Source: Leucoraja ocellata
Lineage: Eukaryota
Direction of reading: 5' to 3'
Length of the DNA: 64,000 nt
Assembly (NCBI GenBank): GCA_036785375.1
Contig: JAWMAR010000531.1
Span: forward strand, 992,001-1,056,000
Each line of letters begins with the position of its first letter. The first letter of the stretch is position 1. Position numbers: made by a program. Below, piece by piece: positions 6,001 through 55,700 of the stretch.

Positions 6001-9000
6001 GTCCGATCCCTTCATTGCTTTCCAAATACGCTGCAATTACATCTTTAATAATTTAATAATATTAAATTCCGGATTGACAGATTCTTGATTGGTTATGGGT
6101 GACAGGGGGTACGGAAATAAGACATTTGAATGGGGTAGAGAGGTTAAGTTGGATCAGCCATTATTGAATGGTGGAGCAATCTTGATGGGCCGAATGGCCT
6201 AATTCTGCTCCTAGAACAATGAATTTATGAACATGAATTATGCGTCTGGTTCTTGAATGCCTTGGAGACCATTTTGTTGAGGCTATACAATATGATTAGA
6301 ATGGATTATGTTGACGGCACAGACTGTGGGCTTGTTGCACTTGTGGCAAAGAGAGACAAAGGATGGGATTATGTCATTAAAATAAAAACTTAATCCTGTA
6401 CAATGTCGGACTTCTTGAAGGTTTTCGGAGCTGAGGTCATCACGACATGTGGCGAGGAAGTGATCACAGCCATTTTGCTATTTTTGATGCATTATCAGAG
6501 TCTTGAGAATTTGGTATTGAGTGGGGAACTGGAATGAGATGGAATGGAGATAGATTATTTTGGTTCCAACACGATCTTTATTATAGAAAATACGAGAAAA
6601 TACTCATATAGCAGGAAATCGCACTCCTTTCTGCTCGTTAAGCCTGAATAATAAGAAGTCACATGAATTTCTCCTCTTCCAGATTCCCGTTTGCTATAGC
6701 TGGCCTGGAGAACTCGAAAGTCCTTGCACATTTCTGGGTCTAATGTGCAATCTTTCTCTGTGTCTCTTGAAGATGATTTCCGTGAGCTGGATCGAAACAT
6801 TCATTTATACAATGAATAAATCTGATCTCGAAACAAAAGTAAATTCAGTTTTAAAACTAGTTGTTCTTCTTTGTACTCAAGTAACAGTAAGCTAGTTATT
6901 AAAGCAAGGGCCGAGCTAATCTCGGATGTCTCTCAGAATGAAATTAAGATATCCCAATAGACATCTGGAAGTGCAGCGGGGTCAACACTGTTTTGTTCGT
7001 ACACCTTGACCTCTTTCTTGACTGTTCAACTTTAAACAATCCTTCGTCAATGCACTCTGCTCAATCTTTGACATGGCATTGACATGGGTAGAGGGTTGGT
7101 TTGGAAACAGGAAACAAAGAGTAGGAATAAACGGGTCCCTGCCAGAATGGCCGGCAGAGGCGAGTGGAGTGCCGCAAGGCTCAGTGTTGGGGCCGCAACT
7201 ATTTACAATATATATATTAATGATTTAGATGATGAGATTAAAAGTAACACTAGCAAATTTGCAGATGACACAAAGTTGGGTGGCATTGTGAACGGCGAAG
7301 AGGATGCTAGGAGGTTGCAGGGTGACTTGGACAGGTTGAGTAAGTGGGCAGATGCAAGGCAGATGCAGTATAATGTAAACAATTGTGAGTTTATCCATTT
7401 TAGTGGCAAGAACAAGGAGGCAAATTTCAATCGAATCTCAATGGTGTCAGATTAGGAAAAATGGAAGTGCAGCGAGACCTGAGTGTCCATGTACACCAGT
7501 CAATTAAAGAAAACATGCAGATACAGCAGGCAGTGAAGAAAGCTAATGAGGCGTTGGCCTTCATAACGAGCGGTTTTGAGTAGAGGATTAAAGAGATCCT
7601 TCTGCAGTTGTACAAGGCCCTGGTAAGACCACATCTCGTGCATTGTGTGCAGTTTCGGTCTCCTAATTTGAGGAAGGACATCCTTGCTATTGAGGCAGTG
7701 CAGCGTAGGTTTAAGAGGTTAATCCCTGGGATGGCGGGAATCTCATATGAGGAAAGATTGGAAAAATAGGGCTTGTATTCACTGGTATTTAGAAGGATGA
7801 GGGGGCATCTTATAGAAACGTATACAATTATAAAAGAACTGACAAGCTAGTCGCAGGAAAAATGTTCCTAATGATGGGGGAGCCCGCAACCAGAGGCCAC
7901 AATCTAAGAATAAAGTGGAGGCCATTTAAAATTGAGAGGAGAAACATTTTTCACCCAGACAGTTGTGTATTTGTGGAATACTCTGCCACAGAAGGCCATA
8001 AAAGCCAATTCACTGGACGAATTTAAAAGTTAGATAGAGCTCTCGGGGCTAGCGGAATCAATGGTTATGGGGAGAACGCAGGCACGGGTTACTGATTGTG
8101 GATGATCAGCCATGATCACAATGAATAGCGGTGCTGGCTTAAAGGGCCAAATGGCCTCCTTCTGCACCTATTTTCTATGTTTCTATCTAACTTGGACACA
8201 TCTAATTCATCAACGTTATTCATTTGTATGATGATTGAGTCTTTGGAAACGCAGTATTTATTGCCTATCCAAAAGTGGGAACACAGAGACACAAGGAACT
8301 GCGGATGATAAAACACGAAGTGCTGGAGTAACACGGGGTGTGCCTCAGGGTTCGGTGCTGGGCCCGTTAATGATTGTCATCTATATCAATGATTTGAATG
8401 GGATCATACTTAGTAAGATTAGCAAGTTTGCAGATGATACAAACGTGGAAGGTTTTGCAGATAGTAGAGATGGTTGTGGAAAAAGTGCAGCAGGGTCTGG
8501 ATCAATTGGCCAGGTAGGCTGAGGAATGGTTGATGGAATTTAATGCAGAGAAATGTGAAGTGTTGCATTTTGGGAATTCTAACATAGGCAGGACCTGCGC
8601 AGTCGACGGTAGATCGGGTGGTCAAAAAAGCTTTTGGCACATTGGCCTTCATCAGCCCGTGTAATGAGTATAGAGGTTGGGAGGTCTTGTTGCAGATGTA
8701 TAAGACGTTGGTGACGCCGCATTTAGAGTATTGAATTCAGTCTGGGCACCCGTCTAGGAAAGATTTCAACAAGCTGGAAATGGTACAGAGAAGATTTACG
8801 AGGATGTTGCCATGACTAGATGGTGTGAGGTATAGGGAGGGGTTGAGTAGGCCTGGACTCTATTCGTTGGAGCGCAGAAGTTGAAGGGAAACCTCATAGA
8901 GGTGTATAGGGTCGTGAGAGGAATAGATCGGGTGGATGTATAGTCCCTTGCCCATGGGAGGACCGGGTTCATGGTGACGGGCAAAGAATTAATAGGAATC

Positions 9001-52700: not shown

Positions 52701-55700
52701 CCAACCAATCCTCTATCCATGTCAATGCCATGTCAAAGATCGAGCAGAGGGCATTGATGAAGGATTGTTTAAAGTTTAACAGTCAAGGAAGTGGACATGG
52801 TTTACGAATAAAATAGCGTTGACCCCGCTGCAATTCCAGATGTCTATTGGGATATCTCAATTTCATTCTTAGAGACATCCGAGACTAGCTCGAGCCCTTG
52901 TTTTAATAACTAGCTTACTGTTTCTTGAGTACAACGAAGAACAACTAGTTTTAAAACAGAGTTTACTTTTGTTTCGAGATCAGATGTATTGATTGTATAA
53001 ATGAATGTTTCGATCCAGCTCATGGAACTCGCCTTCATGAGAGAGAGAGAGAAAGACTGCACATTAGATCATGATCCCAAAAGGTGCCAGGACTTTACAG
53101 TTCTCCAGACCAGCTATAGCAAACAGGAACCTGGAAGATGAGACATTCATGTGACTTCTTGTTATTTACCGCCGTCTATATCAGTTCAGGCTAAGGATAG
53201 CAGTTCGAATCATGAAGACAGAAGAAGGAATATAAGGGGAAGGGGAGGGAGAATGGGGATTAAATATGTGTCAGTACAGGTGGGGCACAAGCAGGGGGGA
53301 GGAAGAAANNNNNNNNNNNNNNNNNNNNNNNNNNNNNNNNNNNNNNNNNNNNNNNNNNNNNNNNNNNNNNNNNNNNNNNNNNNNNNNNNNNNNNNNNNNN
53401 NNNNNNNNNNNNNNNNNNNNNNNNNNNNNNNNNNNNNNNNNNNNNNNNNNNNNNNNNNNNNNNNNNNNNNNNNNNNNNNNNNNNNNNNNNNNNNNNNNNN
53501 NNNNNNNNNNNNNNNNNNNNNNNNNNNNNNNNNNNNNNNNNNNNNNNNNNNNNNNNNNNNNNNNNNNNNNNNNNNNNNNNNNNNNNNNNNNNNNNNNNNN
53601 NNNNNNNNNNNNNNNNNNNNNNNNNNNNNNNNNNNNNNNNNNNNNNNNNNNNNNNNNNNNNNNNNNNNNNNNNNNNNNNAGTAGATAAATAAATAGATAA
53701 ATAAAAATAAAAAATAGATGGGAAAATAGGCGAATATGTAAATAAATGAACGGGTGGGTGGATAGATACATAAATAAACAACCAGAATCTTAGCAGTTTT
53801 AATTTTCATCAACTATTATATATTGGAAACTCTGATATTGTAAACGCTGTCGATCCAAATAATGTGCTGTTTCAAGTTTAAGTGACTTTAGTGCTGCATG
53901 TTCAGCAATATTGAATATAGGCAAATAAGTGATTCGTGCTTCCTCGTTTTTTTGGAGGGGTTTTCCATGAGTCAATGTAATCAATGAACTGATCTCGGAT
54001 GCAATGTTTTTTTTCCTTTTCATTTTATTATGATGCAAAGTTCTTGAACATGAATGGTGTTGATTCCCCACGCCTTTTTAATATTGCCACTGATTTCTTC
54101 CCAATTTTTTTTTACCATGTGTCGGGATCGTGCAACAGTCTGGATCTCCAATTGGTTGTCGGGGTCTACAGTGCGGCTTTCGTGGTCGAGCGAATGCTGC
54201 GACGGTAATTGGCGATGTCATTTCGCAAGGGCGGTTTGATAGCAGCCCTTCCAACACGCTCTGCGTCATCCAGGGGAAGCACCGAGCGTAACACGCACTG
54301 GACAATCGGTCAGGATGAAAAAAAATCCAAATCTCGATTGCCCATCCCCGAACACCTGCATAAAATCATGAGTTTGACACTAAAAGCTGGAGCAACTCAG
54401 TGGGTCAAACAACGTATCTGGAGAAAGAGATAGAACTATAGAGCCAAGCAGTCAAACAGTATGGGAACAGAAGGTACACAAAAATGCTGGAGAAACTCAG
54501 CGGGTGCAGCAGCATCTATGGAGCGAAGGAGATAGGCAACGTTTCGGGCCGAAACCTTATAAGGGTTTCCGCCAGCAACGTTGCCTATCTCCTTCGCTCC
54601 ATAGATGCTGCTGCACCCGCTGAGTTTCTCCAGCATTTTTGTGTACCTTCGATTCTCCAGCATCTACAGTTCCTTCTTAAACGGTATGGAAACAGGCCCG
54701 ATGGCCCAATTTCCCCACACCGGGCTACACCAGCCCCACCTGCCCACATTTGGCCCATATCCCTACAAACATGTCCTTTCCATGTACCGGTCTAACTGTT
54801 TCTTATATGTTGGGATAGTGCGTGCCTCAACTTCCTCCTCTGGTAGCTTGTTCCATACACACAACATTATTTGCGTGAAAAAGTAACCCCTCAGATTCCG
54901 TTATATATTTTTCCGTTAACCGTAAAGCTATGTTCCCTGGTTCTCGATTCACCTACACTGGGCTTGAGATTCTGTGCATGTACTCGATCTATTCCACTCA
55001 TGATTTTATACACCTCTATCAGATCACCCCTCATCTTCCATCGCTCCAAGGAAAATAATCCCAGCCTACTCAATCTCTCCCTATAACTTAGACACCTGGT
55101 CCTGGCAATGTCCTCGTAAATGTTCTATGTACACTTTCCATATTTCCTACAGCATGGTGCCCATAACTGAATACAATACACTAAACGTGGCTTCACCAAC
55201 ATCTATATAACTGCAACATGACCTCACAGCTTTTACACTAAATACTCTGACTGATGGCCAATTTGTCAAAAGCCTTTTTGACCAGCTATCTGCGACTCCA
55301 CATTCAAGGAACCATGCACCTGCACTCCAGGATCCCTCTGCCTTCTGTACCAGAGAAGATTTGGATCAACTTTTATTCGGTAAATTCACATCTCACGTGT
55401 TGGTTTTTAAAAGGCCAGCTGGTCATAATTCAGGACTAACTTGTTCCTCAGAAGAACAAGGATGGGACTGTTCTGCGACCTTGGATGAAGAGAGATGTTG
55501 CAAAAAAAAGAAGAAAAGGACGCAAGTGAATGTTTTAGGAAGCTGAAATCGATCTGTGCCATTGAAGAAGAAACAGCAAACGGAGCGTAGGTAAACAGGG
55601 AATAAGAAGGGCCAAGAAGGCCATAGCAGGTCCTTAGCAGGTAGGATTGAAGAGAAACATGAGACATTTTCTACATATATTACAAAGAAAATAGCAAGAC

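What the first reader, a model, noticed from the sequence alone, without database searches (positions are those of the whole stretch)
6650..53160. Cluster 1 looks like a chimera: 5' half from cluster 3, 3' half from cluster 2, crossover in the C exon
Seen: about 4.7 kb of 5' flank (including two shared CR1 insertions absent from cluster 2), the promoter, leader, V frameworks and most of the J-C intron of cluster 1 match cluster 3. From the stop codon on, its 3'UTR and about 2.5 kb of flank match cluster 2, while cluster 3 diverges about 15 nt after the stop. Region 27376-53160 therefore equals an inverted cluster 1 block plus a 16,186-bp C-to-C insert. Inference: an inverted duplicate of the cluster 3-2 tandem collapsed by unequal crossover between C exons (or the reciprocal insertion occurred). 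C exons would then act as recombination hubs that shuffle promoter-VJ cassettes onto new 3' regulatory flanks.
[Added by the scan's program, not by the reader: the finding's places include an assembly gap (unread letters, written N; its length is only estimated) at 28944 to 29250. Whether the letters on both sides are continuous or in frame is not known: test that first.]
Basis: partly seen in the sequence, partly recalled or inferred. Interest (0 to 1): 0.75.

Follow-up and report, generated by a model that had tools for sequence, protein, structure and literature searches.

The report
Mosaic antibody light-chain gene cluster
One of three neighbouring antibody light-chain gene units has its front half from one neighbour type and its back half from another, joined inside the shared constant-region exon, an ordinary way for repeated gene families to reshuffle.

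Summary
The window carries cartilaginous-fish-type Ig light-chain clusters with germline-joined VJ exons: K1 (+), K2 and K3 (-), part of K4, and the 3' flank of an off-window K0.

- **Mosaic:** K1 matches K3 from 6647 to the C exon (non-coding K2P 0.089). It matches K2 from the C exon to 15703 (K2P 0.078). K2 and K3 differ by about 0.2-0.4 outside the C exon.
- **Breakpoint:** a maximum chi-square test puts one switch between 12963 and 13147, inside the C exon. None of 10000 permutations reached the observed value.
- **Gap:** 28944-29250 lies in K2's non-coding 3' flank. Its two sides are collinear with K1.

New here:
- A head-to-head junction of one LINE copy at 27375/27376 makes K1's 3' half and K2 the arms of a fold-back inverted duplication.
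- The C exon is a roughly 400-nt identity island. K2-K3 dS is 0.04 there against 0.22 in the VJ exon.
- K0's 3' flank is as close to K1 as K2's is.

The best reading is homologous exchange in the C-exon island of an inverted K3-K2 copy. Human J-C lambda units show the same principle. An assembly switch in the 113-nt stretch identical in all three clusters cannot be excluded. The "hub" and "regulatory flank" claims rest on one event.

The parts
11338..11386 (+). K1 leader exon (ATG 11338; an in-frame ATG also at 11332; donor GTGAGT 11387-11392)
   Evidence: Read from the three-way alignment. ATG, donor and phase are conserved in K3 (48824-48776) and K2 (33446-33398).
11506..11850 (+). K1 germline-joined VJ exon (V-set; ...YYC...FGKGTRL... 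in one open frame, no intervening signal sequences; donor GTAAGT 11851-11856). K3-like.
   Evidence: ORF. Pfam V-set E=9.3e-16. dS to K3 is 0.054 and to K2 0.271.
11917..12063 (+). K1-private stretch in the J-C intron that replaces about 365 nt shared by K3 and K2
   Evidence: Alignment. 51 nt match K2's private intron insert at 86%. Unexplained.
12845..13167 (+). K1 C exon (C1-set; stop 13165-13167). Contains the breakpoint.
   Evidence: Pfam C1-set E=8.2e-27. Site table.
12963..13147 (+). Breakpoint interval: last K1=K3 site to first K1=K2 site. Includes 12996-13108, identical in all three clusters.
   Evidence: Maximum chi-square 339.9, 0 of 10000 permutations. 113-nt identical run.
6647..12844 (+). 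K3-type half of K1: 5' flank with two LINE fragments (7062-8191, 8332-10259), promoter, leader, VJ exon, J-C intron
   Evidence: Non-coding K2P to K3 is 0.089 (n=4360).
13168..15703 (+). K2-type half of K1: 3'UTR and flank, with a LINE copy from 15200 on
   Evidence: Non-coding K2P to K2 is 0.078 (n=2442). K0 (1-1241) is equally close.
16044..27041 (.). About 11 kb of nested transposons inserted into the K1-arm LINE copy. Includes a degraded L1/Tx1-like LINE at about 20.5-26.4 kb with zinc-knuckle, endonuclease and RT matches.
   Evidence: K1-arm LINE 15200-16043 and 27042-27376 are collinear on copy c, with 61 nt missing between them.
27375..27376 (.). Head-to-head junction of the two arms: the same LINE, antisense to the left (copy-c position 4276), sense to the right (copy-c position 4810), 2-nt overlap
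27375..36980 (-). K2 cluster: leader 33446-33398, VJ 33277-32936, C 30953-30631, 3' flank to 27375 with gap 28944-29250, 5' flank with its own LINE at 35984-37398
44995..53166 (-). K3 cluster: leader 48824-48776, VJ 48657-48316, C 47139-46817, own 3' flank
1..1241 (+). 3' flank of an off-window cluster K0, K2-type, with the same LINE insertion (1037-1241)
4252..5538 (-). Inverted remnant K0': the same LINE (4252-5286) plus 250 nt of K2-type 3' flank. Forms a second palindrome with K0.

Best explanation
K1 is a real germline mosaic of two diverged light-chain cluster types. Its 5' flank, promoter, leader, joined VJ exon and J-C intron are of the K3 type. Its 3'UTR and 3' flank are of the K2 type. 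The join lies inside the C exon.

The most likely history has three steps.
1. A K3-type/K2-type tandem was duplicated in inverted orientation by a fold-back event whose junction survives at 27375/27376.
2. In the new arm, homologous recombination between the two directly repeated C exons removed the 16 kb between them. This left a Lepore-type hybrid with 5' from the upstream cluster and 3' from the downstream one.
3. About 11 kb of transposons later inserted near the centre of the palindrome.

The exchange fell in the C exon because that exon, with about 50 nt before it and 20 nt after it, is the only tract kept near-identical between the two cluster types. The likely cause is recurrent gene conversion. 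The flanks are too diverged, at 20-40%, for homologous exchange.

Shown: the mosaic, the position of the breakpoint, the equal age of the halves, the inverted junction, and the low synonymous divergence of the C exon. Inferred: the former existence of the full inverted tandem, the deletion step, and conversion as the cause of the identity island.
For: - **One sharp switch.** K1=K3, K1=K2 and K2=K3 site counts are 317/46/45 left of the exon and 21/206/31 right of it. Chi-square is 339.9, and 0 of 10000 permutations reached it.
- **Only K1 switches.** K2-K3 K2P is 0.29-0.31 on the 5' side and 0.21-0.41 on the 3' side.
- **Equal age of the halves.** K2P is 0.089 (CI 0.080-0.098, n=4360) against 0.078 (CI 0.067-0.090, n=2442).
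- **Right polarity.** K3 lies upstream of K2 on the minus strand, and K1 is K3 5' plus K2 3'.
- **Fold-back junction.** Window 27300-27376 matches LINE copy c on the minus strand (4352 to 4276). Window 27375-27450 matches it on the plus strand (4810 to 4885). The two matches overlap by 2 nt.
- **Interrupted K1-arm LINE.** It continues collinearly across 16044-27041, with only 61 nt of the reference missing.
- **C-exon island.**
  - K3 and K2 differ at 6 of 325 sites in the exon, against about 173 of 684 in the J-C intron (Fisher P=4e-25).
  - dS is 0.041 in the C exon against 0.223 in the VJ exon of the same pair: 3 of 76 against 15 of 78 synonymous sites, P=0.005.
- **Intact genes.** Leader, splice sites, open frames and cysteines are intact in all three clusters.
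Against: - The full inverted K3-K2 copy is not observable. K1/K3 homology stops at 6647/53166 next to an assembly gap, and nothing upstream of K1 matches 53680-64000. The arms therefore cannot be shown to have reached beyond K3.
- K0's 3' flank is equidistant from K1 and K2, so K2 is not a uniquely close relative of K1's 3' half.
- The same LINE also sits at the centre of a second palindrome, K0 with K0'. Distances among the four flank copies are themselves mosaic: 0.06 in one part against 0.14-0.16 in another. Further exchanges have therefore blurred the history.
- Inside the exon the breakpoint rests on only 3+3 informative sites. One K1=K2 site (12915) lies among the K1=K3 sites.
- No reads were available, so the contiguity of K1 across 12996-13108 is unverified.
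Confidence: 0.58

Rival explanations
1. One-step origin or long-tract replacement without a full inverted tandem. Two variants are possible. In the first, the copying fork that made the inverted arm switched template between the two C exons. In the second, K1 began as a plain mirror copy of K2 (or of K3), and one half was later replaced by break-induced replication or long-tract conversion that started in the C-exon identity island.
For: The same data as for the best explanation fit this equally: the breakpoint in the island and the fold-back junction. No trace of the deleted 16 kb exists on the K1 side. Other patchy exchanges among the copies suggest that exchange is frequent here: K1 11917-12063 and the 0.06 against 0.14-0.16 distances in the K0' LINE.
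Against: A later replacement of one half would not have to give equal divergence of the two halves, yet 0.089 and 0.078 have overlapping intervals. Replaced tracts of at least 2.5 kb or at least 6 kb running to the end of homology are long for conversion.
Confidence: 0.2
2. Assembly artefact. The assembler switched between two real clusters, or skipped from one C exon to the next, inside the stretch of the C exon that is identical in all copies. On this view K1 as written does not exist.
For: The breakpoint interval 12963-13147 contains the longest three-way identical run, 113 nt at 12996-13108. That is exactly where a graph-based assembler can take the wrong path. The window has two sized scaffold gaps, so it is not a gap-free assembly. 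If the true K1 arm were a plain mirror of K2, no deletion step would be needed.
Against: - K1 lies inside an N-free stretch of 28943 nt.
- It is not a splice of the K3 and K2 sequences themselves, being 5-10% diverged from each.
- It carries private variants on both sides of the identical core.
- The K3-type half sits beside a K3-K2 tandem, as the biological model predicts.
- The two halves are equally old.
Confidence: 0.15
3. K1 shows the older arrangement, and K3 and K2 are the recombinants: a 16-kb C-to-C segment was inserted into a mirror copy of K1.
For: The geometry is symmetric. 27375-53166 equals an inverted K1 block plus 16186 nt between the C exons.
Against: This needs two exchanges, or an unsampled donor tandem, where the deletion model needs one. 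K2 and K3 are uniformly distant from each other on both sides of the exon, as expected of two unrecombined old paralogues.
Confidence: 0.05

Closest known systems
Human immunoglobulin lambda J-C units (IGLJ-IGLC repeats)
   Same: Repeated units, each ending in a conserved C exon. [quoted passage not shown] This is the same principle as the C exon serving as the exchange site.
   Different: Here each unit carries its own promoter and a germline-joined VJ exon, so the exchange re-pairs a whole variable region with a new 3' flank. The units are inverted as well as tandem. The parent types are about 30% diverged outside the C exon.
Lepore-type hybrid genes from non-allelic homologous recombination (delta-beta globin, opsin and KIR hybrids; recalled, except that KIR papers appeared in the listing)
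   Same: The hybrid has 5' from the upstream paralogue and 3' from the downstream one, the interval between them is lost, and the breakpoint lies in a tract of high identity.
   Different: The parents seen here (K3, K2) are intact. The hybrid sits in an inverted copy, so the deletion is inferred and not observed as a polymorphism.
Germline-joined light-chain clusters of cartilaginous fishes (lambda/type II in all species studied; sigma-2/type I in skates)
   Same: The organisation is V-J fused in the germline, one C exon, and many clusters (review PMC5192425, section 5.1 passages; PMC2193156, passages).
   Different: Six searches listed no paper describing a chimeric cluster or a C-exon breakpoint in these loci. 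Which isotype this is could not be determined.
Fold-back inverted duplications and palindromes with short single-copy loops (recalled)
   Same: Two inverted arms, a junction with 2-nt microhomology, and 534 nt of reference present in one arm only.
   Different: The centre has since been split by about 11 kb of transposons, and one arm carries the hybrid cluster.

Membership tests
Cluster-type Ig light-chain gene with germline-joined VJ | V-set exon and single C1-set exon in one transcription unit | tested here: met
   Pfam V-set for 3 of 3 VJ exons scanned and C1-set for 2 of 2 C exons scanned. The exons were searched one by one.
Cluster-type Ig light-chain gene with germline-joined VJ | V and J fused in frame in germline DNA, with no recombination signal spacer | tested here: met
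   One open frame runs from framework 1 through YYC...FGKG... to the donor in K1, K2 and K3. K4 has FAKG.
Cluster-type Ig light-chain gene with germline-joined VJ | Isotype assignment (lambda/type II or sigma-2/type I) | not testable with these tools
   No reference sequences of cartilaginous-fish light chains were available, and the PDB hits were generic antibody chains.
Deletion-type NAHR hybrid (Lepore type) | Breakpoint inside a tract of high identity between the parents | tested here: met
   Breakpoint 12963-13147 lies within the island where K2 and K3 differ at 6 of 325 sites.
Deletion-type NAHR hybrid (Lepore type) | 5' part from the upstream paralogue, 3' part from the downstream paralogue of a direct tandem | tested here: met
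   K3 is upstream of K2 on the minus strand. K1 is K3-type 5' plus K2-type 3'.
Deletion-type NAHR hybrid (Lepore type) | Demonstrated loss of the interval (undeleted allele, reciprocal product or outgroup) | not testable with these tools
   Only this one window is available, and no vertebrate genome collection is on hand.
Fold-back inverted duplication | Inverted arms meeting at a junction with microhomology and a short single-copy loop | tested here: met
   junction at 27375/27376, 2-nt overlap, 534 nt of LINE reference in the K1 arm only.
Concerted evolution (gene conversion) of the C exon | Synonymous divergence far below that of linked exons and introns | tested here: met
   K3-K2 dS is 0.041 in the C exon against 0.223 in the VJ exon (P=0.005). 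The intron p-distance is 0.253 (binomial P=7e-7).
Concerted evolution (gene conversion) of the C exon | Conversion tracts seen directly (donor and acceptor, repeated across many clusters) | not tested
   Only three C exons lie in the window.
   Pfam gives only RVT_1 (E=5.8e-4 and 6.4e-6, both below the curated cut-off) and zf-RVT (E=3e-7). No repeat library was available.

The most novel reading that the evidence does not exclude
In a locus whose VJ exons are already joined in the germline, and which therefore lacks somatic combinatorial choice, the C exon is kept identical between otherwise 30%-diverged cluster types. It serves as a portable crossover site. Over evolutionary time, whole promoter-VJ cassettes are repeatedly re-paired with different 3'UTRs and downstream flanks, and palindromic duplication supplies spare copies for this. 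If K3-type 5' / K2-type 3' hybrids and their reciprocals prove common across the genome and across species, C-exon homogenisation would be part of how cluster-type antibody loci diversify, and more than a by-product.
Probability: 0.12. Interest if true: 0.6.

Novelty: new member of a known kind. Interest (0 to 1): 0.35.

Why it matters
It gives a cleanly mapped example of how multi-cluster antibody loci of cartilaginous fishes are rebuilt: fold-back duplication, homogenisation of the C exon, and exchange within that exon. It also shows that trees made from V, C and flanks of such clusters need not agree. That matters for anyone who counts, names or dates these clusters. The principle has been known since the human lambda J-C repeats, so the surprise for a specialist is modest.

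Tried and rejected
- **PDB sequence searches.** Searches with the C and VJ exon translations gave thousands of generic antibody chains and no help with isotype or species.
- **Forced alignments of the far flanks.** The three-way MAFFT of the far 5' and 3' flanks is partly forced where the third sequence has no homologue. I used it only for the direction of the signal and took distances from pairwise blocks.
- **K3 or K2 as the recombinant.** Neither shows a two-parent pattern, so I rejected both.
- **Inversion between inverted C exons as the origin.** This would give two reciprocal hybrids, and no K2-type 5' / K3-type 3' cluster is in the window, so I rejected it.
- **Positive selection on K1's C exon.** All 6 changed codons change the residue, but this is not significant (P=0.48).
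- **Promoter octamer.** The motif occurs only at 35079, 48015 and 62531. None lies in the K1, K2 or K3 promoters.
- **Raja erinacea light-chain paper (PMC2192082).** Only 9,779 characters are held, and none of six search terms was found in them.
- **Literature on chimeric clusters.** Six searches listed no report of chimeric light-chain clusters in cartilaginous fishes.

**Not done.**
- No search of other clusters or species. The only contig collection open holds bacteria and archaea.
- The species was not identified.
- The spliced leader-VJ-C product was not assembled or searched. Exons were handled one by one.

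
Full report
**What is in the window**

The window (64000 nt, two N runs at 28944-29250 and 53309-53679) holds immunoglobulin light-chain clusters of the kind found in cartilaginous fishes.

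- tblastn of K1's exon translations against the window found four VJ exons and three C exons.
- Pfam gave V-set for 3 of 3 VJ exons scanned and C1-set for 2 of 2 C exons scanned.
- In each VJ exon, V and J are already fused in one open frame.
- A review states that lambda (type II) genes are germline-joined in all cartilaginous fishes studied, and sigma-2 (type I) genes in skates (PMC5192425, section 5.1 passages).
- I could determine neither the isotype nor the species. The sequence is not human.
- Exons were searched one at a time. The spliced leader-VJ-C product was not assembled or searched.

I name the clusters as follows.

| Cluster | Strand | Leader | VJ exon | C exon |
|---|---|---|---|---|
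| K1 | + | 11338-11386 | 11506-11850 | 12845-13167 |
| K2 | - | 33446-33398 | 33277-32936 | 30953-30631 |
| K3 | - | 48824-48776 | 48657-48316 | 47139-46817 |
| K4 | + | not annotated | 62810-63163 | beyond the window |

K0 is an off-window cluster of which only the 3' flank is seen, at 1-1241.

**The gap**

The N run 28944-29250 lies in K2's non-coding 3' flank.

- K1 13658-14312 matches 29919-29251, and K1 14378-14651 matches 28943-28670.
- The two sides are therefore in the same order and orientation as in K1, and 65 nt of K1 face the gap.
- No reading frame crosses it, and nothing was filled in.
- The second gap lies 143 nt beyond the point where K1/K3 homology ends (6647/53166), so that boundary cannot be read.

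Pairwise BLAST gave:
- K1 against K3: 86.5-92.3% from 6647 to 13487, then 73-80% in short patches.
- K1 against K2: 68-78% upstream, then 86.1-96.7% from 13658 to 15703.
- K3 against K2: 72-82% everywhere.

In a three-way alignment of K1 10900-14400, the site patterns are as follows (K1 11917-12063 was left out of the left block).

| Region | K1=K3 | K1=K2 | K2=K3 |
|---|---|---|---|
| Left of the C exon | 317 | 46 | 45 |
| C exon | 3 | 3 | 7 |
| Right of the C exon | 21 | 206 | 31 |

A maximum chi-square scan of the 616 K1=K3 or K1=K2 sites gave 339.9. None of 10000 permutations reached it; the largest was 20.8. The breakpoint lies between 12963 and 13147, with a support interval of 12963-13163.

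- The C-to-C distance is 16186.
- K3 departs from K1 and K2 through indels from 13182, about 15 nt after the stop.
- Two insertions, K1 7062-8191 and 8332-10259, are shared with K3 and absent at the matching points of K2.
- These insertions carry reverse-transcriptase and zf-RVT matches. The name CR1 could not be checked.
- K3 lacks K1 9008-9998. An open frame with the zf-RVT match crosses 9008, so this is a deletion in K3 and not an insertion in K1.

**Which cluster is the recombinant**

K2 and K3 are uniformly far apart on both sides of the exon, with K2P 0.29-0.31 upstream and 0.21-0.41 downstream. Only K1 changes partner. One event in K1 explains the data. Making K2 and K3 the recombinants needs two events.

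**Age of the halves**

- Non-coding K2P is 0.089 for K1-K3 on the 5' side (CI 0.080-0.098, n=4360).
- It is 0.078 for K1-K2 on the 3' side (CI 0.067-0.090, n=2442).
- The intervals overlap, as expected if both halves split from their relatives at one time.
- On both sides divergence is lower near the gene (about 0.05-0.07) than far from it (about 0.10-0.13).

**The inverted duplication has a preserved junction**

All K2-type 3' flanks carry the same LINE insertion. I mapped the copies onto the longest one (copy c, 4252-5286).

- The K1-arm copy runs antisense from 15200 to 16043 (copy-c positions 5286 to 4673).
- It resumes at 27042-27376 (copy-c positions 4612 to 4276, 93.5% identity). Only 61 nt of reference are missing between the two parts.
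- So 16044-27041 is later inserted material. It includes a degraded L1/Tx1-like LINE with zinc-knuckle, endonuclease and reverse-transcriptase matches.
- At 27375/27376 the sequence turns round. The K2-arm copy starts there in sense at copy-c position 4810, with a 2-nt overlap.

This is the form of a fold-back inverted duplication with a 534-nt single-copy loop. It also shows that K1's 3' half and K2 are the two arms.

**Why the C exon**

- K2 and K3 differ at 6 of 325 exon sites, against about 173 of 684 in the adjoining intron (P=4e-25).
- Constraint on the protein alone does not explain this. For the K3-K2 pair, dS is 0.041 in the C exon but 0.223 in the VJ exon (3 of 76 against 15 of 78 synonymous sites, P=0.005).
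- For the K1-K2 pair the figures are 0.041 against 0.271 (P=0.0007).
- VJ-exon dS tracks the neighbouring non-coding distances. C-exon dS does not.
- The island runs from about 12791 to about 13189.

The C exon has therefore been homogenised between the two cluster types, most simply by gene conversion. It is the only good substrate for homologous exchange between them. This is the supported part of the 'hub' idea. That exchanges happen there repeatedly is not shown: there is one event.

**What weakens or complicates the reading**

1. K0's 3' flank is as close to K1 as K2's is: p is 0.089 for K0-K1, 0.081 for K0-K2 and 0.091 for K1-K2. Informative splits are few, at 4, 3 and 1. 'From cluster 2' should read 'from the K2-type lineage'.
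2. K0 faces an inverted remnant, K0' (4252-5538), across a GA-rich tandem repeat (2793-3734). This is a second palindrome around the same LINE.
3. K0' is 0.13-0.16 from the other copies in one part, but 0.06 from the K1 arm in another. Further exchanges have therefore occurred.
4. K1 11917-12063 aligns with neither K3 nor K2. 51 nt of it resemble K2's private intron insert.
5. The breakpoint interval contains the longest run identical in all three clusters, 113 nt at 12996-13108. An assembler could change path there. K1 lies in an N-free stretch of 28943 nt and is 5-10% diverged from both K3 and K2, so it is not a splice of those two sequences. A switch between two other clusters can be excluded only with reads.

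**Other points**

- K1's C exon has 7 private nucleotide changes in 6 codons, and all 6 codons change the residue. This is not significant against neutral expectation (P=0.48). The domain cysteines and the C-terminal cysteine are kept.
- Between K1 and K3 the VJ exon has dN 0.083 and dS 0.054. By eye the replacements cluster where the three CDRs should lie; CDR limits were not formally assigned.
- K1 and K2 share an AATAAA 265-266 nt after the stop, while K3's first one is at 162 nt. This is a motif match only. Nothing is known about regulation by the 3' flank.

**Comparison with what is known**

- The closest parallel is the human lambda J-C repeat. [quoted passage not shown]
- The product has the form of a Lepore-type hybrid (recalled).
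- Gene conversion among shark Ig-superfamily C domains is reported for UrIg2 (PMC12227049, passages).
- Six searches listed no report of a chimeric light-chain cluster in cartilaginous fishes. The library lacks most subscription journals, where much of the shark Ig literature lies.

**Verdict**

- The chimera, the breakpoint and the inverted-duplication parts of the interpretation are supported.
- The deletion step is inferred.
- The hub and regulatory-flank claims are not established.
- The finding is a new example of a known kind of event and is of moderate interest.

Noticed in passing
window 62810-63163 (+), with ATTTGCAT at 62531: A fourth germline-joined VJ exon (K4) of a different V family, 52.5% identical to K1 at the protein level. 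Its J motif reads FAKG instead of FGKG. It is the only cluster with a canonical octamer upstream. Its C exon lies beyond the window.
   Followed up: partly
window 11917-12063: K1-private stretch in the J-C intron replacing about 365 nt shared by K3 and K2. 51 nt (11998-12048) match K2's private intron insert 32406-32356 at 86%.
   Followed up: partly
window 1-1241 and 4252-5538: A second tail-to-tail palindrome (K0 and the remnant K0') built around the same LINE insertion as the K1/K2 palindrome. It is separated by 3 kb that includes GA-rich tandem repeats at 2793-3734.
   Followed up: partly
window 27042-27376 vs 4276-4612, and 14868-15801 vs 4709-5600: The K1 arm and K0' differ by 6% in the 5' part of the shared LINE but by 14-16% in its 3' part and the flank. 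This is another mosaic among the flank copies.
   Followed up: no
window 20500-26400: Nearly full-length but frame-broken L1/Tx1-like LINE: zinc-knuckle ORF1, endonuclease, reverse transcriptase in at least three pieces. It accounts for the GC-rich block in the K1-K2 spacer.
   Followed up: partly
window 32180-32860 and 28422-28670: K2-private insertions: about 680 nt in its J-C intron and 248 nt in its 3' flank. Both are absent from K1, and the second is absent from K0 as well.
   Followed up: no
window 11506-11850 vs 48657-48316: Between the recent duplicates K1 and K3 the VJ exon has dN 0.083 above dS 0.054. By eye the replacements and one codon indel lie where the CDRs should be.
   Followed up: partly
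window 12845-13167: K1's C exon has 7 private nucleotide changes in 6 codons, all changing the residue, while K2 and K3 differ from each other at only 6 sites. Not significant against neutral expectation.
   Followed up: yes
window 14576-14773, 26648-26805, 54470-54650, 61428-61579: Short palindromic elements of 150-200 nt, each matching its own reverse complement at 77-96%. Some match each other, which suggests a MITE-like repeat.
   Followed up: no
window 55887-56072: (GAAT)n microsatellite, about 47 copies.
   Followed up: no
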